In this document: in pieces, positions 7,374 through 53,598 of the stretch
Layout of the letters: the number at the start of each line of letters is the position of its first letter
Position numbering within the stretch: the stretch's first letter is position 1
Assembly (NCBI GenBank): GCA_964016885.1
Contig: OZ024740.1
Location: 136,400,001-136,464,000 of the forward strand
Source: Eledone cirrhosa
Lineage: Eukaryota
Direction of reading: 5' to 3'
Length of the DNA stretch: 64,000 nt
Notes under the pieces: model-generated
Told to the model about the DNA's origin: nothing
The model's database searches: none
Seen by the model: only the letters and a program-made list of their open reading frames with translations
Made by a program: the position numbers and the translations under genes

Positions 7374-7544
7374 TAGGTATCTCTAGCAGTCCTCCTCGGA
7401 TATCGGTGAAACAGTTAGGCCATTGATAAAAATGTTGCTAGATTAGCTTGTAGTTTTTCCCCGCTTTACAATCATATATGAACATTTATCCTGTAAAGCC
7501 TGGTGTAGTCGAAGGGGCACCGTTGCCACATACGATGTGTTTGC

Positions 7545-8350
7545 TCATTGTAAATCTGGTGGAGCCCATCCCCTCTCCGGATCTAACACAACCGATTTCT
7601 TCTAAAGAGAGAGAGAGGTGGGTATAAAGAGAAAGACATTTCAATATAAATAATCGACTCCAAAGGACGACAGTTAAAGTTGACATCGACGGGGTTTGAA
7701 CTAAGAGAGCCGAAACAACACGAAATACAGGAGGGTTACTGAGTATATTACCTCCTTTACAATTTGCAAGGCCTACAAGTGGAGAGATAGGTACAGTCAG
7801 TACATCGCTCGGAGAATCAAGGCGGTGCCACCTAAATATCTAACACTAATCACATCGTAGCTCCTTTTAAATGGTGTAAAGAACACACCTCCCTCCAACA
7901 GGTCTACATTTTTTTATACTGAAAGCAACTTTGTACCGGCCATCTCGCACAAGTTTACGCATCTAATGGCAGTTTTTCTTTCTCCGTTCAAGATCGGTTG
8001 TACGTTTATCTATTGGACATGATCTATTGTTTATTTTTCTACTAAAGATGATCGATAGTATATTTTTCTTTTGACATGCTGGATTGAACGTTTTTTCCAC
8101 TGGTCATCATCGATTGTATCTTTTCCCACAGAAAATGATCGATTCTCCATTCTTTTGTTCGCCAACTTATGTACGAGCTTGTAATTCCTGGCGAAGCCCA
8201 CAGCGTTCGTCTGTACACAACTGATTTCTTCCAGCGAAAGTGAGAGGGACAGTCTGAAAGATGGAAAAAAGTTTGGCATCGGCGACAATTGAACTAAAAT
8301 TCGCTAAACGCCAAGACATTTCTGCTTTCTGCCAACTATGCCAGTGTGGC
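7545..8350 (-). mobile_element. Two old tRNA-derived SINE remnants (~7545-7710 and ~8175-8350), repeated in every unit
   Basis: A-box-like TGGCATAGTTGG and B-box-like AGTTCAAA. The two segments share three alignable blocks, and the GTTCAAACCCCGTCGATGTCAACTTT...CCTTTGGAGTCGAT core resembles the SINE core at 9608-9714. Confidence 0.55.
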
Positions 8351-8431
8351 GTCTAAATTTGTATATCGAATTCTACCTATATTTCTCAGCTTAATAAAAT
8401 TATAGAAATTGTCTATTTTTGTATTTAAATA

Positions 8432-8484
8432 CCAACCTCGTGTGAGGTTTGTAAAAATTGCGTCTAGCACCTTATAGGTGGCCC
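8432..8484 (-). pseudogene. Divergent U4 3'-half fragment (also at ~12099, 15752, 19508, 23261, 35836, 39606, 44648, 55413, 61164; deleted in unit 6)
   Basis: CACCTATAAGGTGCTAGACGCAATTTTTACAAACCTCACACGAGGTTGG aligns with U4 CACCTGTAAGGTGCTCTTCGCAATTTTTTCACGCCTCTAAGGAGGTGG. It is followed by a 3'-box-like AAAAATAGA. Confidence 0.75.
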
Positions 8485-8620
8485 TTCATTTCTGTTAATT
8501 TTAGCTGGGGTTTTTTTTCTATTGCACTTTATAAGACTTTTCCATGCTTTTGTCACATTCCTTAAATTTTACATTTAACATATATATAATGCTTTCATAA
8601 AGTAATGAAAAATCAGATTT
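8479..8620. repeat. AT-rich ~140-160 bp module present twice per unit (second copy ~9866-10025)
   Basis: Shared GGCCCTTCATTTCTGTTA.TTTTAGCTGG...TATAAGACTTTTCCATG...CCTTAAATTTTA...TAATGAAAAATCAG. Confidence 0.9.
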
Positions 8621-9330
8621 AATTCGTATCCGAAATGTTTCAGTGTTGTCGTGCATTTGTATATATGTATGTATCTAACCCCTCGTGTATTGGTCGTGGT
8701 GTCATGACATACAGAATGCCGTGAGCATTTCATACATGGCGGAGTCATGGGGTAGGAAATGTATTTTGTGTGTAAATGTTAAACAGTTACAAAGGGAGTT
8801 ATGTATTAATATAAACAAACATAAATTGGGAGGGTTCGAAATCCATATATGATCGAGCAGGCTCTAAATGTTTTCAGCCAATATACTAAAAATAACAGTA
8901 AAATCTCCTCCTAATAATTAGTAGTGGTACAGTAAATGTTTCCGGCCGCTTCTCGCTGCACAGTCCTCCATGGGGACCTCTAGTGTCCTTGCTCCCTACA
9001 CTTCTGATTTCCTCGATAAATTCAGAAAGACGGTGACCCACTTGAAGTAGGAGCCCGTAAGGTGGGGTGGCTGTTGCAGCCGATGTCTCTGGTCATTCTC
9101 CGTGGTAATGCCTTTGTAATTTTACCTGCGGCTGAGGCACCGCTCAGACTGGGGTGTAGTATCTGCCCCTCCCTTTAATTTCATTAAATGTTTTGATATT
9201 GTATACACTACCCTCAATATAACTACAACTAAATCTCATAGTTAGCCAATAACAATAACTGTAACGCCTAATACCTCAGAATTAAGCAGTCTGTGTTGCC
9301 TATATTCCATCTAATCTTTGATTTATTTTA

Positions 9331-9455
9331 CCATCTCCTCGGAGGTGCGAAAAAATTGCGAAGAGCACCTTACAGGTGCCCTCCGCGGGGCATTGGGAAT
9401 AGTTTTCAACTAGCAATAAACCTCATTGGCCATGGTACCGCCTCTGCGCAAAGCT
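9331..9455 (-). pseudogene. U4: U4 snRNA copy with 15-nt deletion in the 5' stem-loop
   Basis: Same as other copies but lacks + strand CCACGCCTCGGATAA (reads TAGCAATAAACCTCATTGG). Confidence 0.85.
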
Positions 9456-9607
9456 GTCGGTAACCCATCACACCTGTTTATTTAAGGTAATATGAAAAAT
9501 ATTCATTCACTGATTCGTCTTCGCAGTTTATAGTTTATAATTAATTCCTATCATTCATTTCCATTAATCTTAAAATTCAGCTACTTCTACTTTGTTATGT
9601 TTAATAA

Positions 9608-9714
9608 TTGTTTCTACTTAAGGCACAAGGCCAGCAAATATTCCAGTGTATTACTGGTACTTTATTTTATCGACCCCGTAAGGATGAAAGGCAAAGTCAA
9701 CCTTGGCGGGAAAT
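9608..9714 (-). mobile_element. tRNA-derived SINE fragment (octopus-type), in every unit, duplicated in units 8-11
   Basis: TGGTACTTTATTTTATCGACCCCGTAAGGATGAAAGGCAAAGTCAACCT matches, from memory, an abundant octopus SINE core. Its reverse complement recurs at ~10850-10895. Confidence 0.7.
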
Positions 9715-10102
9715 AATAATCTCATAACAGAAATATACAGGCCCACATATCTTGTAAACAGAATAATAAATTAATTCGGTGTATCGTCTTTCTCAAGAAT
9801 ATTATTGACGTCACTACATAACTAATTTAATCCTTCGGTGATTGGTTGTTTTTGTTGTCACTTATGGCCCTTCATTTCTGTTAGTTTTAGCTGGTTTCCT
9901 TTTCCTATTGCATTTATAAGACTTTTCCATGGTTTTTTATTATTTTTGTGACATCCTGCCTTAAATTTTAAAGTTAATTCATATATATTTTAATACTATT
10001 TTCATAAAATAATGAAAAATCAGTCTTAAAAGATTTGCCATGCATTTTGAGTTGGGGGACCATACATACATAAATGTATGTATGTATGTATGTATGTATT
10101 AT

Positions 10103-10706
10103 GTCAGGTCACCAGTTGGTGCGACTGGTAACATGTATCCCAGTACAACCTGTTTCATGGTCGGGTTGTTGGCGACTAAACTGGCAACCCGACCAAGGTT
10201 TCTTGGTGAAGAGGGTGACTTTGGACATCCTGCAGGACTAAAAACAAAACCTGTCAAAGGGCAAAGGAGCTCTTAAGAGTTAATGGCCATCCAAACTCAC
10301 CGAGAGAGATGACCCCTTAGCCTTTGTCAAGGCAGAATTCTAGGAGAAGGAAAACTCTGATATAACACCTGCAACCCTCATGGTATCCAATGATATTGAC
10401 TTGTTCTTCTTTTTGGTAAATATCATCTTGGTTAAGAGAGTGGGACTGGCTTTGTGCAGTGCCTTGCTCACTATTAAAGCTTCACGGCACAGACATTGCT
10501 TTATATCTGGAGATCTCTCTGCACTTGTCACATGGTACCATGGGCCCAGCACTATGTGTCAATAATTGTCACAAGTGTAGTGTTTGTACCAGAGTTTTCA
10601 AGTCGCTGGCTGGACTAAAAAGTCACACTTGTTCAACGCATCGGTAGGGGTTCTCCTACATGGATATAAAGTAGTGGCCGTACTCGAAAACAAGTTGGCA
10701 GCCACC
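10103..10706 (+). mobile_element. Non-autonomous RTE-derived bipartite element (~605 bp), copy 1
   Basis: Middle part aligns to the RTE 5'UTR (~49710-49935). The 3' part encodes KCSVCTRVFKSLAGLKSHT like the last RTE finger and ends GGCCGTACTCG...GGCAGCCACC(ATGT)n like the RTE 3' end. Confidence 0.88.
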
Positions 10707-10767
10707 ATGTATGTATGTATGTATGTATGTATGTATGTATGTATGTATGTATGTATGTATGTATGTT

Positions 10768-10912
10768 AGGGTGGTGATTTGGCAGAGTCGAATTGGAGTG
10801 AATTGGAACGTCGAATAAAAGTGTTTGTGATATTTGTCCCGGTGGTGGTCACCTTTGCCTTTCATCAATTCGAAGTCGATAAATAAAGTACCAGTCTAGT
10901 ACTGGGTTGGAT
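10768..10912 (+). mobile_element. tRNA-derived SINE fragment, sense orientation, following the (ATGT)n tail in each complete unit
   Basis: A-box-like TGGCAGA(G/A)TCG head, then CTTTGCCTTTCATC...GTCGATAAATAAAGTACCAGT, the reverse complement of the 9608-9714 core. Confidence 0.7.
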
Positions 10913-12998
10913 TCTTCCCCTATATCTCTTTCTCATTTCCTCTCTCTCACTTTCTAACTTCCTCTGTACTCGGGTGTAATATTCCCTGGTTACGGGTTCC
11001 TTGGTACAGATACCATCATAGGATATATTTTCATCTATCCCTTAGGTATCTGTAGCAGTCCTCCTCGGATATCGGTGAAACAGTTAGGCCATTGATAAAT
11101 ATGTTGCTAGATTAGCTTGTAGTTTTTCCCCGCTTTACAATCATATATGAACATTTATCCTGTAAAGCCTGGTGTAGTCGAAGGGGCACCGTTGCGACAT
11201 ACGATGTGTTTGGGCATTGTAAATCTGGTGGAGCCCATCCCCTCTCCGGATCTAACACAACCGATTTCCTCTAAAGAGAGAAAGAGGTGGGTATAAAGAG
11301 AAAGACATTTCAATATAAATAATCGACTCCAAAGGACGACAGTCAAAGTTGACATTGACGGGGTTTGAACTAAGAGAGCCGAAACAACACAAAATACAAG
11401 AGGGTTACTGCGTATATTACTTCCTTTACAATTTGCAAGGCCTACAAGTGAAGAGATAGGTCCAGTCATTACATCGCTCGGAGAATCAAGGCGGTGCCAC
11501 CTAAATATCTAACACTAATCACATCGTAGCTCCTTTTAAATGGTGTAAAGAACACACCTCCCTCCAACAGGTCTACTTATTTTATACTGAAAGCAACTTT
11601 GTACCGGCCATCTCGCACAAGTTTACGCATCTAATGGCAGTTTTTCTTTCTCCGCTCAAGATCGTTTGTACGTTTATCTATTGGACATGATCTATTGTTT
11701 ATTTTTCTACTAAAGATGATCGATAGTATATTTTTCTTTTGACATGCTGGATTGAACGTTTTTTCCACTGGTCATCATCGATTGTATCTTTTCCCACAGA
11801 AAATGATCGATTCTCCATTCTTTTGTTCGCAAACTTATGTACGAGCTTGTAATTCCTGGCGAAGCCCACAGCGTTCGTCTGTACACAACTGATTTCTTCC
11901 AGCGAAAGTGAGAGGGACAGTCTGAAAGATGGAAAAAAGTTTGGCATCGGCGACATTTGAACTAAAATCGCTAAACGCCAAGACATTTCTGCTTTCTGCC
12001 AACTATGCCAGTGTGGCGTCTAAATTTGTATATCGAATTCTACCTATATTTCTCAGCTTAATAAAATTATAGAAATTGTCTATTTTTGTATTTAAATACC
12101 AACCTCGTGTGAAGTTGTAAAAATTGCGTCTAGCACCTTATAGGTGGCCCTTCATTTCTGTTAGTTTTAGCTGGGGTTTTTTTTCTATTGCACTTTATAA
12201 GACTTTTCCATGCTTTTGTCACATTCCTTAAATTTTACATTTAACATATATATATAATGCTTTCATAAAGTAATGAAAAATCAGATTTAATTCGTATCCG
12301 AAATGTTTCAGTGTTGTGAATTTGTATATATGTATGTATCTAACCCCTCGTGTATTGGTCGTGGTGTCATGACATACAGAATGCCGTGAGCATTTCATAC
12401 ATGGCGGAGTCATGGGGTAGGAAATGTATTTTGTGTGTAAATGTTAAACAGTTACAAAGGGAGTTATGTATTAATATAAACAAACATAAATTGGGAGGGT
12501 TCGAAATCCATATATGATCGAGCAGGCTCTAAAGGTTTTCAGCCAATATACTAAAAATAACAGTAAAATCTCCTCCTAATAATTAGTAGTGGTACAGTAA
12601 ATAATGTTTCCGGCCGCTTCTCGCTGCACAGCCCTCCGTGGGGACCTCTAGTGTCCTTGCTCCCTACACTTCTGATTTCCTCGATAAATTCAGAAAGACG
12701 GTGACCCGCTTGAGGAAGGAGCCCGTAGAGTGGGGTAGCTGCTGCAGCCGATGTCTCTAGTCATTTTCCGTGGTAATGCCTTTGCAATTTTACCTGCTGC
12801 TGAGGCACCGCTCAGACTGGGGTGTAGTGTCTGCCCCTCCCTTTAGTTCCATTAAATGTTTTGATTTTGTATTCACTACCATCAATATAACTACAACTAA
12901 ATCTCATAGTTAGACAATAGCAATAGCTGTAACGTCTAATACCTCAGAATTAAGCAGTCTGTGTTGCCTATGTACAATCTAATCTTTGATTCATTTTA

Positions 12999-13138
12999 CC
13001 ACCTCCTTAGAGGCGTGAAAAAATTGCGAAGAGCACCTTACAGATGCCCTCCGCTGGGTATTGGGAATAGTTTTCAACTAGCAATAACCACGCCTCGGAT
13101 AAACCTCATTGGCCATGGTACCGCCTCTGCGCAAAGCT
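12999..13138 (-). ncRNA. U4: U4 spliceosomal snRNA
   Basis: Minus strand reads AGCTTTGCGCAGAGGCGGTACCATGGCCAATGAGGTTTATCCGAGGCGTGGTTATTGCTAGTTGAAAACTATTCCCAATACC..., closely matching the metazoan U4 5' domain with compensatory 5'SL changes. Then 3' stem-loop, U-rich Sm site and terminal hairpin, about 140 nt in total. Confidence 0.95.
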
Positions 13139-13786
13139 GTCGGTAACCCATCACACCTGTTTATTTAAGGTAATATGAAAAATATTCATTCACTCATTCG
13201 TCTTTGCAGTTTATAGTTTATAATTAATTCCTATCATTCATTTCCATTAATCTTAAAATTCAGCTACTTCTACTTTGTTATGTTTAATAATTGTTTCTAC
13301 TGTTGGCACAAGGCCAGCAAATATTCCAGTGTATTACTGGTACTTTATTTTATCGACCCCGTAAGGATGAAAGGCAAAGTCAACCTTGGCGGGAAATAAT
13401 AATCTCATTACAGAAATATACAGGCCCACATATTTTGTAAACAGAATAATAAATTAATTCGGTGTATCGTCTTTCTCAAGAATATTATTGACGTCACTAC
13501 ATAACTAATTTAATCCTTCGGTGATTGGTTGTTTTTGTTGTCACTTATGGCCCTTCATTTCTGTTAGTTTTAGCTGGTTTCCTTTTCCTATTGCATTTTA
13601 TAAGACTTTTCCATGTTTTTTTATTATTTTTGTGACATCCTGCCTTAAATTTTAAACTTAATTCATATATATTTTAATACTATTTTCATAAAATAATGAA
13701 AAATCAGTCTTAAAAGATTTGCCATGCATTTCGAGTTAGGGGACCATACATACATAAATGTATGTATGTATGTTTGTATGTATTAT

Positions 13787-14394
13787 GTCAGGTCACCAGT
13801 TGGTGCTACTGGTAACATGTATCCCAGTACAGCCTGTTTCATGGTCGGGTCGTTGGCGACTAAACTGGCAACCTGACCAAGGTTTCTTGGTGAAGAGGGT
13901 GACTTTGGACATCCTGCAGGACTAAAAACAAAACCTGTCAAAGGGCAAAGGAGCTCTTAAGAGTTAATGGCCATCCAAACTCACCGGGAGAGATGACCCC
14001 TTAGCCTTTGTCAAGGCAGAATTCTAGGAGAAGGAAAACTCTGATATAACACCTGCAACCCTCATAGTATCCAATGATGTTGACTTGTTCTTCTTTTTGG
14101 TAAATATCATCTTGGTTAAGAGAGTGGGACTGGCTTTGTGCAATGCTTTTTCTCACTATAAAAGCTTCACGGCACAGCCATTGCTTTATGTCTGGAGATC
14201 TCTCTGCACGTCTCGTCACATGGTACCATGGGCCCAGCACTATGTGTCAATAATTGTCACAAGTGTAGTGTTTGTGCCAGAGTTTTCAAGTCGCTGGCTG
14301 GACTAGATAGTCACACTCGTTCAGAGCATCGGTAGGAGTTCTCCTACATGGATATAAAGTAGTGGCCATACTCGAAAACGAGTTGGCAGCCACC
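13787..14394 (+). mobile_element. RTE-derived non-autonomous element
   Basis: Copy of 10103-10706 flanked by (ATGT)n. Confidence 0.88.
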
Positions 14395-16655
14395 ATGTAT
14401 GTATGTATGTATGTATGTATGTATGTATGTTAGGGTGGTGAAATGGCAGAGTCGTTAGAACGTCGAATAAAAGTGTTTGTGATATTTGTCCCGGTGGTGG
14501 TCACCTTTGCCTTTCATCAATTCGAAGTCGATAAATAAAGTACCAGTCTAGTACTGGGTTGGATTCTTCACCTATATCTCTTTCTCATTTCCTCTCTCTC
14601 ACTTTCTAACTTTCTCTGTACTCGAGTGTAATATTCCCTGGTTACGCGTTCCTTGGTACAGATACCATCATAGGATATATTTTCATCTATCCCTTAGGTA
14701 TCTGTAGCAGTCCTCCTCGGATATCGGTGAAACAGTTAGGCCATTGATAAAAATGTTGCTAGATTAGCTTGTAGTTTTTCCCCGCTTTACAATGGTATAT
14801 GAACATTTATCCTGTAAAGCCTGGTGTAGTCGAAGGGGCACCGTTGCCACATACGATGTGTTTGGGCATTATAAATCTGGTGGAGCCCATCCCCTCTCCG
14901 GATCTAACACAACCGATTTCCTCTAAAGAGAGAAAGAGGTGGGTATAAAGAGAAAGACATTTCAATATAAATAATCGACTCCAAAGGACGACAGTCAAAG
15001 TTGACATTGACGGCGTTTGAACTAAGAGAGCCGAAACAACACGAAATACAAGAGGGTTACTGAGTATATTACTTCCTTTACAATTTGCAAGGCCTACAAG
15101 TGAAGAGATAGGTCCAGTCAGTACATCGCTCGGAGAATCAAGGCGGTGCCACCTAAATATCTAACACTAATCACATCGTAGCTCCTTTTAAATGGTGTAA
15201 AGAACACACCTCCCTCCAACAGGTCTACTTTTTTTGATACTGAAAGCAACTTTGTACCGGCCATCTCGCACAAGTTTACGCATCTAATGGCAGTTTTTCT
15301 TTCTCCGCTCAAGATCGTTTGTACGTTTATCTATTGGACATGATCTATTGTTTATTTTTCTACTAAAGATGATCGATAGTATATTTTTCTTTTGACATGC
15401 TGGATTGAACGTTTTTTCCACTGGTCATCATCGATTGTATCTTTTCCCACAGAAAATGATCGATTCTCCATTCTTTTGTTCGCCAACTTATGTACGAGCT
15501 TGTAATTCCTGGCGAAGCCCACGGCGTTCGTCTGTACACAACTGATTTCTTCCAGCGAAAGTGAGAGGGACAGTCTGAAAGATGGAAAAAAGTTTGGCAT
15601 CGGCGACATTTGAACTAAAATCGCTAAACGCCAAGACATTTCTGCTTTCTACCAACTATGCCAGTGTGGCGTCTAAATTTGTATATCGAATTCTACCTAT
15701 ATTTCTCAGCTTAATAAAATTATAGAAATTGTCTATTTTTGTATTTAAATACCAACTTCGTGTGAAGGTTGTAAAAATTGCGTCTAGCACCTTATAGGTG
15801 GCCCTTCATTTCTGTTAGTTTTAGCTGGGGGGGTTTTTTCTATTGCACTTTATAAGACTTTTCCATGCTTTTGTCACATTTCCTTAAATTTTACATTTAA
15901 CATATATATAATGCTTTCATAAAGTAATGAAAAATCAGAGTTAATTCGTATCCGAAATGTTTCAGTGTTGTCGTGCATTTGTATATATGTATGTATCTAA
16001 CCCCTCGTGTATTGGTCGTGGTGTCATGACATACAGAATGCCGTGAGCATTTCATACATGGCGGAGTCATGGGGTAGGAAATGTATTTTGTGTGTAAATG
16101 TTAAACAGTTACAAAGGGAGTTATGTATTAATATAAACAAACATAGATTGGGAGGGTTCGAAATCCATATCTGATCGAGCAGCCTCTAAATGTTTTCAGC
16201 CAATATACTAAAAATAACAGTAAAATCTCCTCCTAATAATTAGTAGTGGTACAGTAAATAATGTTTCCGGCCGCTTCTCGCTGCACAGCCCTCCGTGGGG
16301 ACCTCTAGTGTCCTTGCTCCCTACACTTCAGATTTCCTCGATAAATTCAGAAAGACGGTGACCCGCTTGAGGAAGGAGCCCGTAGGGTGGGGTAGCTGCT
16401 GCAGCCGATGTCTCTGGTCATTTTCCGTGGTAATGCCTTTGCAATTTTACCTGCTGCTGAGGCACCGCTCAGACTGAGGTGTAGTGCCTGCCCCTCCCTT
16501 TAGTTCCATTAAATGTTTTGATTTTGTATTCACTACCATCAATATAACTACAACTAAATCTCATAGTTAGACAATAGCAATAGCTGTAACGTCTAATACC
16601 TCAGAATTAAGCAGTCTGTGTTGCCTATGTACAATCTAATCTTTGATTCATTTTA

Positions 16656-16795
16656 CCACCTCCTGAGAGGCGTGAAAAAATTGCGAAGAGCACCTTACAG
16701 GTGCCCTCCGCTGGGTATTGGGAATAGTTTTCAACTAGCAATAACCACGCCTCGGATAAACCTCATTGGCCATGGTACCGCCTCTGCGCAAAGCT
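16656..16795 (-). ncRNA. U4: U4 spliceosomal snRNA
   Basis: Near-identical to 12999-13138. Confidence 0.95.
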
Positions 16796-17487
16796 GTCGG
16801 TAACCCATCACACCTGTTTATTTAAGGTAATATGATAAATATTCATTCACTGATTCGTCTTCGCAGTTTATAGTTTATAATTAATTCCTATCATTCATTT
16901 CCATTAATCTTAAAATTCAGCTACTTCTACTTTGTTATGTTTAATAATTGTTTCTACTTTAGGCACGAGGCCAGCAAAGATTCAAGTGTATCACTGGTAC
17001 TTTATTTTATCGACCCCGTAAGGATGAAAGGCAAAGTCAACCTTGGCGGGAAATAATAATCTCATAACAGAAATATACAGGCCCACATATCTTGTAAACA
17101 GAATAATAAATTAATTCGGTGTATCGTCTTTCTCAAGAATATTATTGACGTCACTACATAACTAATTTAATCCTTCGGTGATTGGTTGTTTTTGTTGGCC
17201 CTTATGGCCCTTCATTTCTGTTAGTTTTAGCTGGTTTCCTTTTCCTATTGCATTTTATAAGACTTTTCCATGGTTTTTTAATGAGTTTTGTGACAACCTG
17301 CCTTAAATTTTAAACTTAATTCATATATATTTTAATACTATTTTCATAAAATAATGAAAAATCAGTCTTAAAAGATTTGGCATGCATTTGGAGTTAGGGG
17401 ACCATACATACATAAATGTATGTATGTATGTATTATGTATGTATGTATGTATGTATGTATGTATGTATGTATGTATGTATGTATTAT

Positions 17488-18090
17488 GTCAGGTCACCAG
17501 TTGGTGCTACTGGTAACATGTATCCTGTACAACCTGTCTCATGGTCGGGTCGTTGGCGACTAAACTGGCGACCCCACCAAGGTTTCTTGGTGAGGACGGT
17601 GACTTTGGACATCCTGCAGGACTAAAAACAAAACCTGTCAAAGGGCAAAGGAGCTCTTAAGAGTTAATGGCCATCCAAACTCACCGGGAGAGATGACCCC
17701 TTAGCCTTTGTCAAGGCAGAATTCTAGGAGGAGGAAAACTCTGATATAACACCTGCAAACCTGATGGTATCCAATGATGTTGACTTGTTCTTCTTTTTGG
17801 TAAATATCATCTTGGTTAAAAGAGTGGGACTGGCTTTGTGCAGTGCCTTGCTCACTATTAAAGCTTCACGGCACAGACATTGCTTTATATCTGGAGATCT
17901 CTCTGCACTTGTCACATGGTACCATGGGCCCAGCACTATGTGTCAATAATTGTCACAAGTGTAGTGTTTGTACCAGAGTTTTCAAGTCGCTGGCTGGACT
18001 AAAAAGTCACACTTGTTCAACGCATCGGTAGGGGTTCTCCTACATGGATATAAAGTAGTGGCCGTACTCGAAAACGAGTTGGCAGCCACC
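17488..18090 (+). mobile_element. RTE-derived non-autonomous element
   Basis: Copy flanked by (ATGT)n. Confidence 0.88.
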
Positions 18091-18101
18091 ATGTGTGTAT
18101 G

Positions 18102-18135
<34 letters not shown>

Positions 18136-20408
18136 TGTATGTATGTATGTATGTATGTATGTATGTATGTACGTATGTATGTATGTTAGGGTGGTGAATT
18201 GGCAGAATCGTTAGAACGTCGAATAAAAGTGTTTGTGATATTTGTCCCGGTGGTGGTCACCTGTGCCTTTCATCAATTCGAAGTCGATAAATAAAGTACC
18301 AGTCTAGTACTGGGTTGGATTCTTCCCCTATATCTCTTTCTCATTTCCTCTCTCTCACTTTCTAACTTCCTCTGTACCCGGGTGTAATATTCCCTGGTTA
18401 CGCGTTCCTTGGTACAGATACCATCATAGGATATATTTTCATCTATCCCTTAGGTATCTGTAGCAGTCCTCCTCGGATATCGGTGAAACAGTTAGGCCAT
18501 TGATAAAAATGTTGCTAGATTAGCTTGTAGTTTTTCCCCGCTTTACAATCATATATGAACATTTATCCTGTAAAGCCTGGTGTAGTCGAAGGGGCACCGT
18601 TGCGACATACGATGTGTTTGGGCATTGTAAATCTGGTGGAGCCCATCCCCTCTCCGGATCTAACACAACCGATTTCCTCTAAAGAGAGAAAGAGGTGGGT
18701 ATAAAGAGAAAGACATTTCAATATAAATAATCGACTCCAAAGGACGACAGTCAAAGTTGACATTGACGGGGTTTGAACTAAGAGAGCCGAAACAACACGA
18801 AATACAAGAGGGTTACTGAGTATATTACCTCCTTTACAATTTGCAAGGCCTACAAGTGAAGAGATAGGTCCAGTCAGTACATCGCTCGGAGAATCAAGGC
18901 GGTGCCACCTAAATATCTAACACTAATCACATCGTAGCTCCTTTTAAATGGTGTAAAGAACACACCTCCCTCCAACAGGTCTACTTTTTTTGATACTGAA
19001 AGCAACTTTGTACCGGCCATCTCGCACAAGTTTACGCATCTAATGGCAGTTTTTCTTTCTCCGCTCAAGATCGTTTGTACGTTTATCTATTGGACATGAT
19101 CTATTGTTTATTTTTCTACTAAAGATGATCGATAGTATATTTTTCTTTTGACATGCTGGATTGAACGTTTTTTCCACTGGTCATCATCGATTGTATCTTT
19201 TCCCACAGAAAATGATCGATTCTCCATTCTTTTGTTCGCAAACTTATGTACGAGCTTGTAATTCCTGGCGAAGCCCACAGCGTTCGTCTGTACACAACTG
19301 ATTTCTTCCAGCGAAAGTGAGAGGGACAGTCTGAAAGGTGGAAAAAAGTTTGGCATCGGCGACATTTGAACTAAAATCGCTAAACGCCAAGACATTTCTG
19401 CTTTCTACCAACTATGCCAGTGTGGCGTCTAAATTTGTATATCGAATTCTACCTATATTTCTCAGCTTAATAAAATTATAGAAATTGTCTATTTTTGTAT
19501 TTAAATACCAACCTCGTGTGAAGGTTGTAAAAATTGCGTCTAGCACCTTATAGGTGGCCCTTCATTTCTGTTAGTTTTAGCTGGGGGGGGTTTTCTATTG
19601 CACTTTATAAGACTTTTCCATGCTTTTGCCACATTCCTTAAATTTTACATTTAACATATATATATAATGCTTTCATAAAGTAATGAAAAATCAGATTTAA
19701 TTCATATCCGAAATGTTTCAGTGTTGTGAATTTGTATATATGTATGTATCTAACCCCTCGTGTATTGGTCGTGGTGTCATGACATACAGAATGCCGTGAG
19801 CATTTCATACATGGCGGAGTCATGGGGTAGGAAATGTATTTTGTGTGTAAATGTTAAACAGTTACAAAGGGAGTTATGTATTAATATAAACAAACATAGA
19901 TTGGGAGGGTTCGAAATCCATATCTGATCGAGCAGCCTCTAAATGTTTTCAGCCAATATACTAAAAATAACAGTAAAATCTCCTCCTAATAATTAGTAGT
20001 GGTACAGTAAATAATGTTTCCGGCCGCTTCTCGCTGCACAGCCCTCCGTGGGGACCTCTAGTGTCCTTGCTCCCTACACTTCTGATTTCCTCGATAAATT
20101 CAGAAAGACGGTGACCCGCTTGAGGAAGGAGCCCGTAGGGTGGGGTAGCTGCTGCAGCCGATGTCTCTGGTCATTTTCCGTGGTAATGCCTTTGCAATTT
20201 TACCTGCTGCTGAGGCACCGCTCAGACTGAGGTGTAGTGCCTGCCCCTCCCTTTAGTTCCATTAAATGTTTTGATTTTGTATTCACTACCATCAATATAA
20301 CTACAACTAAATCTCATAGTTAGACAATAGCAATAGCTGTAACGTCTAATACCTCAGAATTAAGCAGTCTGTGTTGCCTATGTACAATCTAATCTTTGAT
20401 TCATTTTA

Positions 20409-20548
20409 CCACCTCCTGAGAGGCGTGAAAAAATTGCGAAGAGCACCTTACAGGTGCCCTCCGCTGGGTATTGGGAATAGTTTTCAACTAGCAATAACCA
20501 CGCCTCGGATAAACCTCATTGGCCATGGTACCGCCTCTGCGCAAAGCT
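20409..20548 (-). ncRNA. U4: U4 spliceosomal snRNA
   Basis: Appears identical to 16656-16795. Confidence 0.95.
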
Positions 20549-21252
20549 GTCGGTAACCCATCACACCTGTTTATTTAAGGTAATATGATAAATATTCATT
20601 CACTGATTCGTCTTCGCAGTTTATAGTTTATAATTAATTCCTATCATTCATTTCCATTAATCTTAAAATTCAGCTACTTCTACTTTGTTATGTTTAATAA
20701 TTGTTTCTACTTTAGGCACGAGGCCAGCAAAGATTCAAGTGTATCACTGGTACTTTATTTTATCGACCCCGTAAGGATGAAAGGCAAAGTCAACCTTGGC
20801 GGGAAATAATAGTCTCATAACAGAAATATACAGGCCCACATATCTTGTAAACAGAATAATAAATTAATTCGGTGTATCGTCTTTCTCAAGAATATTATTG
20901 ACGTCACTACATAACTAATTTAATCCTTCGGTGATTGGTTGTTTTTGTTGGCCCTTATGGCCCTTCATTTCTGTTAGTTTTAGCTGGTTTCCTTTTCCTA
21001 TTGCATTTTATAAGACTTTTCCATGGTTTTTTAATGAGTTTTGTGACAACCTGCCTTAAATTTTAAACTTAATTCATATATATTTTAATACTATTTTCAT
21101 AAAATAATGAAAAATCAGTCTTAAAAGATTTGGCATGCATTTGGAGTTAGGGGACCATACATACATAAATGTATGTATGTATGTATTATGTATGTATGTA
21201 TGTATGTATGTATGTATGTATGTATGTATGTATGTATGTATGTATGTATTAT

Positions 21253-21855
21253 GTCAGGTCACCAGTTGGTGCTACTGGTAACATGTATCCTGTACAACCT
21301 GTCTCATGGTCGGGTCGTTGGCGACTAAACTGGCGACCCCACCAAGGTTTCTTGGTGAGGACGGTGACTTTGGACATCCTGCAGGACTAAAAACAAAACC
21401 TGTCAAAGGGCAAAGGAGCTCTTAAGAGTTAATGGCCATCCAAACTCACCGGGAGAGATGACCCCTTAGCCTTTGTCAAGGCAGAATTCTAGGAGGAGGA
21501 AAACTCTGATATAACACCTGCAAACCTGATGGTATCCAATGATGTTGACTTGTTCTTCTTTTTGGTAAATATCATCTTGGTTAAAAGAGTGGGACTGGCT
21601 TTGTGCAGTGCCTTGCTCACTATTAAAGCTTCACGGCACAGACATTGCTTTATATCTGGAGATCTCTCTGCACTTGTCACATGGTACCATGGGCCCAGCA
21701 CTATGTGTCAATAATTGTCACAAGTGTAGTGTTTGTACCAGAGTTTTCAAGTCGCTGGCTGGACTAAAAAGTCACACTTGTTCAACGCATCGGTAGGGGT
21801 TCTCCTACATGGATATAAAGTAGTGGCCGTACTCGAAAACGAGTTGGCAGCCACC
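21253..21855 (+). mobile_element. RTE-derived non-autonomous element
   Basis: Copy flanked by (ATGT)n. Confidence 0.88.
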
Positions 21856-21866
21856 ATGTGTGTATG

Positions 21867-21900
<34 letters not shown>

Positions 21901-24162
21901 TGTATGTATGTATGTATGTATGTACGTATGTATGTATGTTAGGGTGGTGAATTGGCAGAATCGTTAGAACGTCGAATAAAAGTGTTTGTGATATTTGTCC
22001 CGGTGGTGGTCACCTGTGCCTTTCATCAATTCGAAGTCGATAAATAAAGTACCAGTCTAGTACTGGGTTGGATTCTTCCCCTATATCTCTTTCTCATTTC
22101 CTCTCTCTCACTTTCTAACTTCCTCTGTACCCGGGTGTAATATTCCCTGGTTACGCGTTCCTTGGTACAGATACCATCATAGGATATATTTTCATCTATC
22201 CCTTAGGTATCTGTAGCAGTCCTCCTCGGATATCGGTGAAACAGTTAGGCCATTGATAAAAATGTTGCTAGATTAGCTTGTAGTTTTTCCCCGCTTTACA
22301 ATCATATATGAACATTTATCCTGTAAAGCCTGGTGTAGTCGAAGGGGCACCGTTGCGACATACGATGTGTTTGGGCATTGTAAATCTGGTGGAGCCCATC
22401 CCCTCTCCGGATCTAACACAACCGATTTCCTCTAAAGAGAGAAAGAGGTGGGTATAAAGAGAAAGACATTTCAATATAAATAATCGACTCCAAAGGACGA
22501 CAGTCAAAGTTGACATTGACGGGGTTTGAACTAAGAGAGCCGAAACAACACGAAATACAAGAGGGTTACTGAGTATATTACCTCCTTTACAATTTGCAAG
22601 GCCTACAAGTGAAGAGATAGGTCCAGTCAGTACATCGCTCGGAGAATCAAGGCGGTGCCACCTAAATATCTAACACTAATCACATCGTAGCTCCTTTTAA
22701 ATGGTGTAAAGAACACACCTCCCTCCAACAGGTCTACTTTTTTTGATACTGAAAGCAACTTTGTACCGGCCATCTCGCACAAGTTTACGCATCTAATGGC
22801 AGTTTTTCTTTCTCCGCTCAAGATCGTTTGTACGTTTATCTATTGGACATGATCTATTGTTTATTTTTCTACTAAAGATGATCGATAGTATATTTTTCTT
22901 TTGACATGCTGGATTGAACGTTTTTTCCACTGGTCATCATCGATTGTATCTTTTCCCACAGAAAATGATCGATTCTCCATTCTTTTGTTCGCAAACTTAT
23001 GTACGAGCTTGTAATTCCTGGCGAAGCCCACAGCGTTCGTCTGTACACAACTGATTTCTTCCAGCGAAAGTGAGAGGGACAGTCTGAAAGGTGGAAAAAA
23101 GTTTGGCATCGGCGACATTTGAACTAAAATCGCTAAACGCCAAGACATTTCTGCTTTCTACCAACTATGCCAGTGTGGCGTCTAAATTTGTATATCGAAT
23201 TCTACCTATATTTCTCAGCTTAATAAAATTATAGAAATTGTCTATTTTTGTATTTAAATACCAACCTCGTGTGAAGGTTGTAAAAATTGCGTCTAGCACC
23301 TTATAGGTGGCCCTTCATTTCTGTTAGTTTTAGCTGGGGGGGGTTTTCTATTGCACTTTATAAGACTTTTCCATGCTTTTGCCACATTCCTTAAATTTTA
23401 CATTTAACATATATATATAATGCTTTCATAAAGTAATGAAAAATCAGATTTAATTCGTATCCGAAATGTTTCAGTGTTGTGAATTTGTATATATGTATGT
23501 ATCTAACCCCTCGTGTATTGGTCGTGGTGTCATGACATACAGAATGCCGTGAGCATTTCATACATGGCGGAGTCATGGGGTAGGAAATGTATTTTGTGTG
23601 TAAATGTTAAACAGTTACAAAGGGAGTTATGTATTAATATAAACAAACATAGATTGGGAGGGTTCGAAATCCATATATGATCGAGCAGGCTCTAAAGGTT
23701 TTCAGCCAATATACTAAAAATAACAGTAAAATCTCCTCCTAATAATTAGTAGTGGTACAGTAAATAATGTTTCCGGTTGCTTCTCGCTGCACATCCCACC
23801 GTGGGGACCTCTAGTGTCCTTGCTCCCTACACTTCTGATTTCCTCGATAAATTCAGAAAGACGGTGACCCTCTTGAGGAAAGAGCCCGTGGGGTGGGGTA
23901 GCTGCTGCAGCCGATGTCTCTGGTCATTTTCCGTGGTAATGCCTTTGTAATTTTACCTACGGTGAGGCACCGCTCAGACTGGGGTGTAGTGTCTGCCTCT
24001 CCCTTTAGTTGCATTAAATGTTTTGATTCTGTATATTCACTACCATCAATATAACTACAACTAAATCTCATAGTTAGCCAATAGCAATAACTGTAACGCC
24101 TAATACCTCAGAATTAAGCAGTCTGTGTTGCCTATGTACAATCTAATCTTTGATTCATTTTA

Positions 24163-24302
24163 CCACCTCCTTAGAGGCGTGAAAAAATTGCGAAGAGCAC
24201 CTTACAGGTGCCCTCCGCGGGGTATTGGGAATAGTTTTCAATTAGCAATAACCACGCCTCGGATAAACCTCATTGGCCATGGTACCGCCTCTGCGCAAAG
24301 CT
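24163..24302 (-). ncRNA. U4: U4 spliceosomal snRNA
   Basis: Near-identical copy (TTGCTAATTGAAAA, TACCCCGC variant). Confidence 0.95.
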
Positions 24303-24950
24303 GTCGGTAACCCATCACACCTGTTTATTTAAGGTAATATGAAAAATATTCATTCACTGATTCGTCTTCGCAGTTTATAGTTTATAATTAATTCCTATCA
24401 TTCATTTCCATTAATCTTAAAATTCAGCTACTTCTACTTTGTTATGTTTAATAATTGTTTCTACTTTAGGCACAAGGCCAGCAAATAATCCAGTGTATTA
24501 CTGGTACTTAATTTTATCGACCCCGTAAGGATGAAAGGCAAAGTCAACCTTGGCGGGAAATAATAATCCCATAACAGAAATATACAGGCCCACATATCTT
24601 GTAAACAGAATAATAAATTAATTCGGTGTATCGTCTTTCTCAAGAATATTATTGACGTCACTACATAACTAATTTAATCCTTCGGTGATTGGTTGTTTTT
24701 GTTGGCCCTTATGGCCCTTCATTTCTGTTAGTTTTAGCTGGTTTCCTTTTCCTATTGCATTTTATAAGACTTTTCCATGGTTTTTTATTATTTTTGTGAC
24801 ATCCTGCCTTAAATTTTAAAGTTAATTCATATATATTTTAATACTATTTTCATAAAATAATGAAAAATCAGTCTTAAAAGATTTGCCATGCATTTCGAGT
24901 TAGGGGACCATACATACATAAATGTATGTATGTAGGTATGTATGTATTAT

Positions 24951-25551
24951 GTCAGGTCACCAGTTGGTGCTACTGGTAACATGTATCCCAGTACAACCTG
25001 TTTCATGGTCGGGTCGTTGGCGACTAAACTGGCAACCCGACCAAGGTTTCTTGGTGAAGAGGGTGACTTTGGACATCCTGCAGGACTAAAAACAAAACCT
25101 GGCAAAGTGCAAAGGACCTCTTAAGAGTCAATGACCATCCAAAATCAACGTGAGAGATGACCCCTTAGCCTTTGTCAAGGCAGAATTCTAGAAGGAAAAC
25201 TCTGATATAACACCTGCAACCCTCATGGTATCCAATGGTGTTGACTTGTTCTTCTTTTTGGTAAATATCATCTTGGTTAAGAGAGTGGGACTGGCTTTGT
25301 GCAGTGCCTTGCTCACTATTAAAGCTTCACGGCACAGACATTGCTTTATATCTGGAGATCTCTCTGCACTTGTCACATGGTACCATGGGCCCAGCACTAT
25401 GTGTCAATAATTGTCACAAGTGTAGTGTTTGTACCAGAGTTTTCAAGTCGCTGGCTGGACTAAAAAGTCACACTTGTTCAACGCATCGGTAGGAGTTCTC
25501 CTACATGGATATAAAGTAGTGGCCGTACTCGAAAACGAGTTGGCAGCCACC
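24951..25551 (+). mobile_element. RTE-derived non-autonomous element
   Basis: Copy whose tail hosts the RLE LINE. Confidence 0.88.
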
Positions 25552-25562
25552 ATGTATGTATG

Positions 25563-25593
<31 letters not shown>

Positions 25594-25649
25594 GTATGTA
25601 TGTATGTATGTATGTATGTATGTATGTATGTATGTATGTATGTATGTAT

Positions 25650-28600
25650 TCTCTTTCTCTTAATTTCGAGTATATTGTTTTGACCGGCCACCTTCCTGGT
25701 GGCAATGTTGTAAAAGAAAAGAAATTGTCATCCCTTGAATCGCAAGAATGTTTTGCAAATTTTGAAGGTGCCAGCTATCGCAGCCATTTGTAGACTATGA
25801 ATTAGGGAGCTGCGCTTTTTGTCCGCAAATCCAAGTTCAGTCATACTTTGGTCCAAGCGGGTTAGTATATAACCCGTAGCACCAATAATGATGGGTATGA
25901 AGCTAAAGGTGTATCTTGGATACAGGATTTGTAAACTCCTCATCAATGGTCCGTAGATGTCCTCCTTCTCCTGTATTTTTCTGACACCGTTTACATCAAG
26001 TGGGCAGCTGATCTCCACAACAGAACACGTTTTCAATGTGTGGTCCCAAACTACAATATCAGGCCGGTTGTGCTTTAATTTGGAGGCAGTTTTTAATTTC
26101 AGGTTCCACCAGTATTCCTTAGTGCCATCTGTCTCAATATATTCTTCCTCGTTTGTTGTTAATTTTGTTTTCCGAAGTGCGTTCCAGATGGTTCTAGCTA
26201 TCCCATCGTGTCTCATGGGGAGGTAGTAGCGAGATGACATTCTTTCGCAGCTGGCAACAATGTGGCTTACATCCTCGATCTTTGTTTTACATAGCCTACA
26301 TTTATTGTCAGCTGCGGGCCCTCCTCTTTTGTGCAGCAGATATTTGGTAGGGAGTTCTTGTTCCTGTATTGCATAGAGATATCCCTCAAGGTGTGATGTC
26401 ATAAACTTGTCGGAACTCCATGCCAGGCTTTTTGAGTGGTTTATCCCCTCTATGGTCTGTGTTTTACGCCTCAAGTATCCATGCACAACTTCTTCTGTAA
26501 ATTGGTCAATTTTTTAATCTTGTTTGAACATTGAATAGGATCTTCCGATTTCTCTGGGTGAGAGATTTATATCAGGCTTTCTTCCATATCTCTCCTCCAG
26601 ATCAGTCGCTATTCTAATGATATTTCTTTTTTCATGCTCATAAACCTGGGCAAGGTGGTTGCCAACCTTTTTCCTCTGTTGAAGGTGTTGCTTCAGTGTT
26701 ACTATCCGGGTCTCATATGTTGTTAATATTGATTTTAGACCCCGGCCACCTTCCTTGCGTGAGAAGTATAGCCTATCCACATCACCATTGATGTTAAAGT
26801 TCCCAGTAACACTGAGAAGTTTTCGAGTTCTAACATCCATCTCACTTAGTTCTTGCAATGACCAGTTCAGTAGGCCAAATGTTGGCGTTAGAATTGGCAC
26901 AGCATAAGTATTGTGGGCAATGTATTTGTTGTATGCTGACAGTTCTGATGACCATATTTTCTTTACTCTTCTGAGGTATTCAGTTCTGGTTCTCTCCTTA
27001 TTTATGGGTCCATCATATCTGACATTCTCATCCTGTCCAAGATATCTGTAGTTGTCACCTGACTGCAGAGGTTGTATTGTCAGGCCGTTCATCTCTAGAT
27101 TTCTAGAGGAGGACACAGCTCTTCCACGTTTTACTGCCAAATATGCACACTTGGACTCACCAAATTTCATTTTGATGTCGGTTGAAAATTGTGTAATGAG
27201 GTCCAATTGTTTCTTGATGTCATTGATATTTGGCCCATACAACTTCAGGTCATCAACAAAGAAAAGATGGGAGATACTTCTGGGCCCACTTCTTTGTCCA
27301 CCTTGTTTCCTGAGTAGGTAAGATAGTGGATTCAGTGAAAGAACGAAGAGTAGCACTGACAAGCTATCACCCTGAAAGATGCCCTTCTGTTAATGTATCT
27401 TATCAGTCTTAACCTGCTCCTTCTCACCTCTAAGGATCAAATTGGTGTACCAGTTCTTGGTCAGGCGTTCAACAGCAGCTACCAATGGTTGTGGGACTTT
27501 AGCTAACTGTAAAGCCTTAATAATCCACCCATGAGGTACACTATCGAATGCTTTTTGATAGTCCAGCCACACGACAGTCATGTTTCTGCGATTCTTTGTT
27601 GTTTTTTCCTGAATCATTTTGTTAGTTAGTAGGTGATCTATGCAACCCCACACCTCCCTCTTTCCACCAGCTTGCTCAGGTGTTATGATGTTGTTGGTAG
27701 CACAGTGATCCTGTAAGAACAGGTTAAGGCACCCAGTATATAATTTATACATGATGTTTTGGCAGGCAATTGGGCGGTAATTTTTAGCAAGGGTGGTTTG
27801 GCTATTTTGGGGAATGAGGAGAGTAGTGGCAGTTGATAACCATCTGGGCAGTTCTTGTGTGCCCTTAATGGTTTCTGTAAACAGCCGTATGAGATCTTGC
27901 CGATAGAAAGTGAAATTCTTCAACCAGTATCCTGTAATGAGGTCTGGGCCTGGTGATTTCCTATTCGACATTTTCTGTAGAGCTGTTTCCAGTATTGATC
28001 CATCTATGTCATATTGTTTTGTCTGGACATGTTGGCAGTAGTCCTGTTCCAGTTCTTTTAGCCAATTAGCTTGTCTGTTGAATCCGTCATCCGTTTCCCA
28101 TACAGATCTCCAGTAGCTCTCAACCTGTTCTTTTGAAGGGGTGTCGTTTACAGGGATTGAGCTTTTGCCACCTAAGCTGCGATAAACTGATTTAGGATCT
28201 CTGGCAAACAATCTATTTAGCACTTGTTGTTTATGTGCTGTTGACTTATATTTTAGTCTTTCTGTTGTAGCTGTGAGTTGTTGTTTCAACTGGTGTAATT
28301 TGGAGTTCAAAGTTTTAAATTTTGTATCTCCAAATCGTCTCTCTAACTTTTTCTTTAGGTCTTCCTGGTGTCGTGTGAAGTTGCTCTCTATGTTGCATTT
28401 CATAACGACTGCGATGTGTGAGATACTTCGTCTCAGGGACAAAATTTTGGTTTTTAAATTTCGCATCCACGCTGGTTCAGGCTTTCTGTTTGTATCTTGA
28501 TTGCGTGGTTTTAGATGTGTGTTATATGATAGCAATGTGACATCTGAAACATATAACAAAACATTAAGCGTTTCAAATGTCGTTTCTACACCTTTAGATC

Positions 28601-29855: not shown

Positions 29856-30645
29856 TGTATGTATGTATGTATGTATGTATGTATGTATGTATGTATGTAT
29901 GTATGTATGTATGTTAGGGTGGTGAATTGGCAGAGTCGTTAGAACGTCGAATAAAAGTGTTTGTGATATTTGTCCCGGTGGTGGTCACCTTTGCCTTTCA
30001 TCAATTCGAAGTCGATAAATAAAGTACCAGTCTAGTACTGGGTTGGATTCTTCACCTATATCTCTTTCTCATTTCCTCTCTCTCACTTTCTAACTTTCTC
30101 TGTACTCGGGTGTAATATTCCCTGGTTACGCGTTCCTTGGTACAGATACCATCATAGGATATATTTTCATCTATCCCTTAGGTATCTGTAGTAGTCCTCC
30201 TCGGATATCGGTGAAACAGTTAGGCCATTGATAAAAATGTTGCTAGATTAGCTTGTAGTTTTTCCCCGCTTTACAATCATATATGAACATTTATCCTGTA
30301 AAGCCTGGTGTAGTCGAAGGGGCACCGTTGCGACATACGATGTGTTTGGGCATTGTAAATCTGGTGGAGCCCATCCCCTCTCCGGATCTAACACAACCGA
30401 TTTCCTCTAAAGAGAGAGAGAGGTAGGTATAAAGAGAAAGACATTTCAATATAAATAATCGACTCCAAAGGACGACAGTCAAAGTTGACATTGACGGGGT
30501 TTGAACTAAGAGAGCCGAAACAACACGAAATACAAGAGGGTTACTGAGTATATTACCTCCTTTACAATTTGCAAGGCCTACAAGTGAAGAGATAGGTCCA
30601 GTCAGTACATCGCTCGGAGAATCAAGGCGGTGCCACCTAAATATC

Positions 30646-33006: not shown

Positions 33007-33146
33007 CCACCTCCTTAGAGGCGTGAAAAAATTGCGAAGAGCACCTTACAGGTGCCCTCCGCGGGGTATTGGGAATAGTTTTCAACTAGCAATAACCACG
33101 CCTCGGATAAACCTCATTGGCCATGGTACCGCCTCTGCGCAAAGCT
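33007..33146 (-). ncRNA. U4: U4 spliceosomal snRNA
   Basis: Near-identical copy. Confidence 0.95.
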
Positions 33147-36735: not shown

Positions 36736-36875
36736 CCACCTCCTTAGAGGCGTGAAAAAATTGCGAAGAGCACCTTACAGGTGCCCTCCGCTGGGTATTG
36801 GGAATAGTTTTCAACTAGCAATAACCACGCCTCGGATAAACCTCATTGGCCATGGTACCGCCTCTGCGCAAAGCT
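36736..36875 (-). ncRNA. U4: U4 spliceosomal snRNA
   Basis: Near-identical copy. Confidence 0.95.
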
Positions 36876-53597: not shown

Positions 53598-53598
53598 C

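What the first reader, a model, noticed from the sequence alone, without database searches (positions are those of the whole stretch)
10103..10706. Non-autonomous bipartite RTE derivative found next to an intact RTE partner
Seen: 14 full and 3 partial copies. The middle aligns with the LINE 5'UTR (TTCTAGGAGAAGG, AACTC.GATATAA.ACCTGC, ATGATGTTGA, AGAGAGTGGGA, GCACAG.CATTGC). The end retains a last-finger remnant (C..C.R.F.SLAGLKSH.RS.H-stop) and the terminal GGCC.TACTCGA.AACGAG..GGCAGCCA.C(ATGT)n. I saw no pol III box in it. Known: RTE LINEs give rise to 5'+3' bipartite non-autonomous elements. Inference: a LINE/parasite pair whose shared blocks map the cis signals for mobilisation. The divergence suggests the true parent may be a sister RTE family.
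Basis: partly seen in the sequence, partly recalled or inferred. Interest (0 to 1): 0.75.

Follow-up and report, generated by a model that had tools for sequence, protein, structure and literature searches.

The report
Gutted RTE retrotransposon, true parent found
This 600-base repeat is an RTE-type jumping gene that lost 3.5 kb from its middle and spread to roughly 14,000 or more sites in the genome; its parent is not the intact neighbour but a sister family seen only as broken copies, and its newest copies are likely moved by the neighbour or another helper, a well-known kind of element.

Summary
Observation confirmed: 14 full and 3 partial copies. Inside the window they are mostly passengers of a U4 snRNA gene array, but the family (A) is dispersed genome-wide: 16,775 exact hits to a head motif, 86 of the first 100 of A type, with target-site duplications in (AT/GT)n tracts. 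The parent is not the neighbouring RTE. It is a 4.08-kb sister family, RTE-A (61% protein identity to the neighbour): the element equals its first 428 and last 180 bases at 95-97%, joined at a GTCA overlap. All 8 near-full parent copies seen are broken, and 39 copies lie 1.2-3.0% from their majority sequence, yet 8 dispersed A copies are identical. So A may have outlived its parent and now borrow another enzyme, possibly the neighbour's. The neighbour's own derivative is a different family, B; four families share the 190-base head, which the neighbour has replaced. Known kind (bipartite non-autonomous RTE, Kojima 2018). Earlier scan notes seem to describe this family on other DNA (e1-9598424, e1-9532884).

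The parts
10103..10292 (+). Head: the 5' terminal 190 bases of the parent RTE-A; likely holds the internal promoter (inferred). Shared with families B, C, D at 85-95%; absent from the neighbouring RTE except an 11-base remnant
   Evidence: 7 of 8 near-full RTE-A copies start at the same base; module identities; no pol III box or ribozyme descriptor hit
10293..10530 (+). Rest of the retained RTE-A 5' UTR, including the conserved RTE 5' UTR domain (22-base motif at 10339-10360); stops about 55 bases before the parent's start codon
   Evidence: 10103-10530 is 95.3-97.0% identical to L333, L334, L338, L346; the 22-base motif is letter for letter in the RTE-derived part of OegopSINE in the supplement of PMC5786205; ATG at about base 483 of the parent
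10527..10530 (+). Deletion junction: GTCA present at both parental break points; about 3,452 bases removed
   Evidence: Junction sequences of 8 parent copies; joints skipping 3,452 bases in contigs of three runs; junction variants GTCGTCA 44, GTCA 23, GTCATCA 17, GCCGTCA 9 among loci in hand
10527..10647 (+). C-terminal remnant of the RTE-A ORF: linker, last C2H2 finger and stop codon; no start codon, not a gene
   Evidence: 95.6-96.6% to the 3' end of four parent copies; preceded by RTE coding sequence in 30 of 30 parent loci
10648..10706 (+). RTE-A 3' UTR with predicted stem-loop (10681-10695) and terminal GCAGCCACC; likely recognition signal for the RTE protein (inferred)
   Evidence: Folds and alignment of five tails; 29 of 36 terminal bases equal to the neighbour's tail, against 36 of 36 for family B
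10074..10102 (+). Upstream (ATGT)n target tract
   Evidence: TRF; 47 of 53 dispersed copies have such a tract upstream
10707..10766 (+). Downstream (ATGT)n tract: target duplication plus later expansion rather than encoded tail
   Evidence: 38 of 53 copies with a duplication of 8 or more bases against 13.5 in shuffled pairings
48435..54054 (+). Neighbouring intact sister RTE (RTE-W): 1.6-kb leader, 1181-aa ORF 50045-53590 (endonuclease, RT, three C2H2 fingers), microsatellite-rich 3' UTR; source lineage of family B, candidate present helper of A
   Evidence: Pfam; 138 scored copies 99-100% identical in protein; same 5' end in 4 other copies; 9 of 20 copies within 0.14%
7374..64000 (-). Tandem array of U4 snRNA genes (about 3.7-kb unit) that carries the window copies passively; a copy of A begins 648-1090 bases upstream of each U4 gene, on the opposite strand
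   Evidence: 11 U4 hits above the gathering score; distances; shared private changes among the 14 copies

Best explanation
The element is an internal-deletion derivative of the RTE family RTE-A (its first 428 and last 180 bases) that codes for nothing and was likely copied by RTE proteins in trans, first those of RTE-A and, for its youngest copies, likely those of another active RTE such as the neighbour. Shown: parentage, the single junction, dispersal, target-site duplications, 5' truncation, microsatellite targets, matching ages of A and RTE-A. Inferred: the junction arose by a template jump at the GTCA overlap during reverse transcription; the head drives pol II transcription; the 3' stem-loop and terminus are bound by the RTE protein; the terminal AT pairs with a nicked (AT/GT)n tract to prime target-primed reverse transcription. 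One or two copies landed in a U4 snRNA repeat unit and were then multiplied with the array.
For: Parent: a fragment in L271 led to a family of 243 candidates; 30 of 30 fetched loci have RTE coding sequence followed by the A 3' end; of 20 extended loci 8 also carry the A 5' part, 7 from base 1-2; window copy 95-97% identical to both ends. Dispersal: 33 of the 40 best hits lie outside the array, the 40 on 13 contigs; 16,775 head-motif hits, control 0; 27 of the first 30 such hits are A with body. Retrotransposition marks: duplications of 8 or more bases in 38 of 53 copies against 13.5 (max 25) in 1000 shuffles; 5 contain non-repeat letters (8-18 bases) against 0.2 (max 2); 5'-truncated copies with intact 3' ends. 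Ages: A median 1.8% (n=27, unselected), RTE-A median 2.1% (n=39). Late activity: 8 of 23 top dispersed copies identical over 608 bases on 7 contigs, with unrelated flanks. Published model for RTE priming on terminal microsatellite-like bases: PMC6007223, section 18.
Against: No transcript, start site or mobilisation was tested. The helper of the young copies is not shown: only 39 of 243 RTE-A candidates were examined, ranked by likeness to one diverged copy, so an intact young RTE-A branch could be missed. A's tail differs from the neighbour's at 7 of 36 bases, while family B, with a 36 of 36 match, shows no young copies among 21 examined (2.0-5.1% from consensus), which is odd if the tail alone decides. 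The young subfamily is small: none of 27 unselected copies carries all four of its marks. 15 of 53 copies show no duplication of 8 or more bases. Clade RTE rests on domain order and the UTR motif, not on a tree.
Confidence: 0.85

Rival explanations
1. Same origin, but RTE-A itself still moves A: a few intact RTE-A source copies exist among the unexamined candidates, and the neighbour plays no part.
For: Only 39 of 243 candidates seen; the tail matches RTE-A fully and the neighbour only 29 of 36; RTE-type LINEs are generally held to recognise their own 3' ends strictly (recalled; PMC5786205 introduction says tails are recognised by counterpart LINE proteins).
Against: Closest pair among 39 RTE-A copies differs by 0.8%, median pair 3.7%; longest open frame in 8 near-full copies is 250-556 aa. 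An active source would be expected to leave identical 3' fragments.
Confidence: 0.3
2. The element derives directly from the neighbouring intact RTE (the title's pairing).
For: Significant similarity in three blocks and the same target type.
Against: Only 77% in the body and 81% in the tail, no head; RTE-A matches at 95-97% over the whole length; family B, not A, matches the neighbour (95% body, 36 of 36 tail).
Confidence: 0.01
3. A SINE: a small-RNA or otherwise foreign head grafted on a bipartite RTE tail, or a dimer whose head was once a free element.
For: Heads of families A-D are 85-95% alike while bodies are 71-80%; the head ends in a stem-loop plus GCCATC that resembles a tail; one head-only copy in L263.
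Against: The head is the 5' end of full-length RTE-A. No A/B box, tRNA or Rfam hit. A head-end-plus-AT pattern has 6 hits against 16,775 heads, and by eye only 2 of the 6 (L277, L280) lack a following body or linker.
Confidence: 0.03
4. A single deleted LINE amplified passively as part of a satellite.
For: True inside the window: 10 of 14 copies share a junction deletion and 10 share one substitution; 17488 and 21253 are identical.
Against: Thousands of dispersed copies with unrelated flanks and duplications.
Confidence: 0.01

Closest known systems
Bipartite ORF-absent non-autonomous RTE LINEs (RTE-N2_Lch, RTESINE1/2, WALLSI3, MAR4_MD, Bov-A; Kojima 2018, PMC5786205, main text parts 1-4 of 5 read)
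   Same: 5' end plus extreme 3' end of one RTE family joined by an internal deletion; no small-RNA head; keeps the conserved RTE 5' UTR domain
   Different: Longer (608 against 286 bases for RTE-N2_Lch); keeps the last zinc-finger codons and stop; comes as one of four families with a common head; seems to go on spreading after its parent decayed
Ceph-SINEs and AviRTE-mobilised SINEs (PMC5786205 with supplement passages; PMC4844689, two passages)
   Same: Same RTE 5' UTR motif (22 identical bases with OegopSINE); bipartite RTE-derived parts
   Different: Those carry tRNA, 5S, 28S or GC-rich heads; here the head is the LINE's own 5' end
RTE-2_OV of Octopus vulgaris (PMC9115989, passages)
   Same: Like the neighbour and RTE-A: one ORF with endonuclease, RT and C2H2 finger; the neighbour also has a 3' UTR made largely of microsatellite
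5' end switching of SolRTE LINEs in Nicotiana (bioRxiv 10.1101/2022.11.04.512097, abstract and section 12)
   Same: RTE families that replace their leader while keeping body and 3' end, as the neighbour appears to have done
   Different: Plant system; here non-autonomous derivatives preserve the old leader
SaTar microsatellite-targeted elements (PMC5907723, abstract)
   Same: Small non-autonomous elements that stack head to tail in microsatellites
   Different: Those are Mutator-like DNA elements; these are retroposons

Membership tests
Bipartite ORF-absent non-autonomous RTE LINE | 5' part is the 5' end of an autonomous LINE | tested here: met
   10103-10530 is 95-97% identical to bases 1-428 of RTE-A; 7 of 8 parent copies start at the same base
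Bipartite ORF-absent non-autonomous RTE LINE | 3' part is the extreme 3' end of the same LINE | tested here: met
   10527-10706 is 96% identical to the last 180 bases; 30 of 30 parent loci end this way
Bipartite ORF-absent non-autonomous RTE LINE | Internal deletion removes the coding region | tested here: met
   About 3,452 bases missing, including the start codon; no long frame
Bipartite ORF-absent non-autonomous RTE LINE | Spreads as a unit by retrotransposition (dispersed copies, duplications, 5' truncation) | tested here: met
Bipartite ORF-absent non-autonomous RTE LINE | Parent belongs to the RTE clade | tested here: inconclusive
   Single ORF with endonuclease and RT (RTE-A 61% identical) and the published RTE 5' UTR motif fit; no tree against reference clades was built
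Bipartite ORF-absent non-autonomous RTE LINE | Pol II transcription from the retained 5' end and mobilisation in trans | not testable with these tools
   Needs start-site mapping and a retrotransposition assay
RTE elements with a 5' HDV-like ribozyme | Nested double pseudoknot at the 5' terminus | tested here: inconclusive
   No hit with my own strict descriptor in A, B, C or the neighbour and no ribozyme family in Rfam up to E=10; the descriptor had no positive control
SINE (tRNA, 5S, 7SL or snRNA head) | Small-RNA-derived head with pol III boxes | tested here: not met
   No tRNA, no Rfam match at gathering score, no A or B box within 2 mismatches; head is LINE-derived
Named Repbase or Dfam family | Sequence match to a deposited consensus | not testable with these tools
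   Neither library is available here

The most novel reading that the evidence does not exclude
A parasite that changed helper: family A outlived its parent RTE-A and is now copied by a sister RTE only 61% identical in protein and 81% in the tail, while that sister escaped the fate of all head-bearing RTE lineages by swapping the shared 190-base leader for a captured 1.2-kb one. The genome would then hold a dated natural series (A, B, C, D, RTE-A, RTE-W) that makes RTE tail specificity and leader turnover directly testable.
Probability: 0.4. Interest if true: 0.55.

Novelty: new member of a known kind. Interest (0 to 1): 0.35.

Why it matters
As a class it is known. The value lies in the complete anatomy: the exact parent, one junction, roughly 14,000 exact head matches of A type (about 22,000 copies after allowing for 1.8% decay, my estimate) against 243 parent candidates, and three sister families that preserve older RTE leaders and tails. 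Five tails with a kept stem-loop and terminus, and one head kept at 85-95%, narrow down the likely cis signals. If the identical young copies are made by a non-parental RTE, RTE tail recognition is looser than the usual strict pairing, which is easy to test. The young copies may also be insertion polymorphisms.

Tried and rejected
Penultimate-finger remnant starting at 10497: suggested by a chance H-L-S-S-H reading; the stretch is parental 5' UTR. A degenerate pattern built on that idea gave 2 hits, both A copies with a 2-base deletion. Two motifs taken from loose contig ends found nothing in G000; they were flanks of truncated copies. Four long open frames in the 48-aa search were microsatellite read-through into truncated A copies. 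Protein relatives (74 hits, best 55% in the region) did not give the parent. Head profile against 80 metagenome RTE loci and the neighbour's leader: no hit; body profile: 3 of 80 (L147-L149). Head as a free monomer family: rejected. HDV-like, hammerhead, tRNA, pol III boxes: not found. The head folds better than shuffles (z -3.35), but three family consensuses give too few pair changes to fix a structure. Other organisms: 17 organism labels held part of the sequence and contigs of two others spanned it, but raw reads under one of those labels gave 0 of 12.8 million on it, so I make no claim of presence in other species or of horizontal transfer. No RNA holder listed. Summed contig depth is not a copy number and was not used. 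Six literature searches listed no paper naming this family; motif searches in supplements of PMC9115989 (4 of 8 files not searched) and PMC13282606 found nothing; Repbase, Dfam and that study's repeat library could not be seen.

Full report
Observation. The 604-base element occurs 14 times in full and 3 times in part in the window. Its middle, finger remnant and terminus align with the neighbouring RTE above all 200 shuffles each. Its first 190 bases have no counterpart in the neighbour, whose leader runs from 48435 to 50044 and starts at the same base in 4 of 20 other copies fetched. The host is a 3.0-Gb animal genome; that it is an octopod is my recollection of a SINE motif and the wording of scan notes, not tested.

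Local context. The window from 7374 on is a tandem array of U4 snRNA genes: 11 hits on the minus strand, continuing about 25 kb past the window. A copy of the element begins 648-1090 bases upstream of each U4 gene. The 14 copies share private changes (10 share a junction deletion, 10 one substitution; 17488 and 21253 are identical), so they descend from very few insertions. The intact RTE lies in the (ATGT)n tract behind the copy at 47757 in one unit only, and the unit's normal flank resumes after it: a later insertion into a shared target.

Genome-wide family. Of the 40 best hits, 33 lie outside the array; the 40 are on 13 contigs. A 24-base head motif has 16,775 exact matches, the reversed control none; 86 of the first 100 carry the A-type letter. 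Of the first 30, 27 are A with its body, 2 are family B, 1 is rearranged. Among 53 dispersed full copies, all are followed by AT; 47 have a microsatellite upstream and 49 downstream; 38 show a duplication of 8 or more bases (0-6 spacer bases allowed) against 13.5 in shuffled pairings, and 5 duplications of 8-18 bases contain non-repeat letters against 0.2. So the element ends at GCCACC(AT) and the repeat behind it mostly comes from the target. 5'-truncated copies with intact 3' ends are common.

The parent. A tblastn of loci already in hand showed in L271 a coding fragment with three fingers that runs into the A 3' end. Its finger region found 243 candidates; 30 of 30 fetched loci have RTE coding sequence followed by the A 3' end. 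I extended 20 loci (11 whose coding reached the locus edge, 9 not yet seen): 8 carry the A 5' part joined to further leader and ORF, 7 of them from base 1-2; 12 are 5'-truncated. This family, RTE-A, is about 4,080 bases long, with a 482-base leader and a 1179-aa majority ORF 61% identical (713 of 1172) to the neighbour. The window copy matches its ends at 95.3-97.0% (5') and 95.6-96.6% (3'). Both break points contain GTCA; the window copy has the clean join at 10527-10530, the commonest form has three extra bases. Contigs of three runs show the same 3,452-base skip.

Sister families. B, C and D are dispersed families with the same head (85-95% alike) but different bodies (71-80%) and tails (64-81%). 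B matches the neighbour (body 208 of 219, tail 36 of 36), so B is the neighbour lineage's derivative. The neighbour keeps 10 of 11 bases of the head's end at 49613-49623 before a T run like those of C and D (8 of 2000 shuffles reach this; the stretch was picked after seeing it). I infer that the head is the old RTE leader and that the neighbour's lineage replaced it with captured DNA, as described for plant RTEs (bioRxiv 10.1101/2022.11.04.512097, section 12). Parents of C and D were not found. All five tails end in GCAGCCAYC after a short stem-loop; in C a G-C pair is replaced by T-A (read by eye).

Timing. Unselected A copies lie 1.8% from consensus (0.5-3.0%, n=27; variance close to the mean, as for one burst) and RTE-A copies 2.1% (1.2-3.0%, n=39 of the 40 best hits): the bulk of A spread together with its parent. 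But 8 of the 23 top dispersed copies are identical over 608 bases, share four marks, lie on 7 contigs and have unrelated flanks, whereas the closest RTE-A pair differs by 0.8% and all 8 near-full copies are broken (longest frame 250-556 aa). The neighbour's family is very young: 9 of 20 copies within 0.14% (these 20 were chosen for long open frames and likeness). Hence the likely but unproven helper switch. Against it: 204 RTE-A candidates unseen; B, with the perfect tail, shows no young copies among 21; none of 27 unselected A copies carries all four marks; scan notes report other young RTE families in this genome that could serve equally (not tested).

Mechanism. Shown: origin by one internal deletion, spread as a unit, microsatellite targets, duplications. 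Inferred: template jump at GTCA; pol II transcription from the head; binding of the 3' stem-loop by an RTE protein; priming on terminal AT, in line with the model in PMC6007223 (section 18). No pol III box, tRNA, Rfam family or ribozyme descriptor match was found.

Comparison. It meets every testable feature of the bipartite ORF-absent non-autonomous RTE LINEs of Kojima 2018 (PMC5786205, parts 1-4 of 5 and supplement passages), except that clade membership was not checked by a tree. It is not a SINE. Six searches listed no paper naming this family; PMC13282606 (part 1 of 3 and its supplement) reports many recently active RTE and unclassified SINE families in Octopus vulgaris, so it may sit unnamed in such a library. 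Verdict: real, well resolved, a new member of a known kind; interest 0.35, with a 0.4 chance of a helper switch worth 0.55.

Noticed in passing
window 7374-64000 (U4 genes at 9334, 13002, 16659, 20412, 24166, 33010, 36739, 40509, 45551, 56323, 62067; minus strand): The tandem array is a U4 snRNA gene cluster of about 80 kb; its spacer collects retroposons in one (ATGT)n tract upstream of each gene.
   Followed up: partly
window 48435-49660: The intact RTE's leader looks like captured host DNA: fixed start, a GTAAGT donor-like site 42 bases in, decayed SINE pieces and several microsatellites; an older copy (L008) has the same leader at about 76%. Splicing not tested.
   Followed up: partly
L011:2123-2716, L024:768-1295, L262:262-700: Three more dispersed non-autonomous families (B, C, D) with the same head; D also keeps a last-finger remnant; C keeps leader sequence that matches RTE-A just before its start codon.
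   Followed up: partly
window 25650-29855, minus strand: A frameshifted non-LTR element with RT and a C-terminal zinc/restriction-like region (R4/Dong-like by recall) inserted in the (ATGT)n tract behind the copy at 24951.
   Followed up: no
window 656-7366, minus strand: Broken L1/Tx1-like element (proline-rich ORF1 3870-5480, endonuclease and RT pieces) with a partial duplicate at 79% identity, just before the array.
   Followed up: no
L123:75-1482, L127:2120-3464, L106:2064-2400, L128: Fragments of further three-finger RTE families (50-64% to the neighbour) with their own tails of the same stem-loop type.
   Followed up: no
L263, L277, L280: Rare head-only copies ending at GGCCATC followed by a microsatellite: either priming at the head's tail-like end or deletion between the two GCCATC.
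   Followed up: partly
L229, L252, L260, L269, L281, L338: Copies with inverted or rearranged 5' parts next to the insertion, like twin-priming inversions of other LINEs (recalled).
   Followed up: no
L147:1-860: A marine metagenome RTE with three fingers starts behind an (ATGT)n tract and shares the body domain, so the targeting may be old in this lineage.
   Followed up: no
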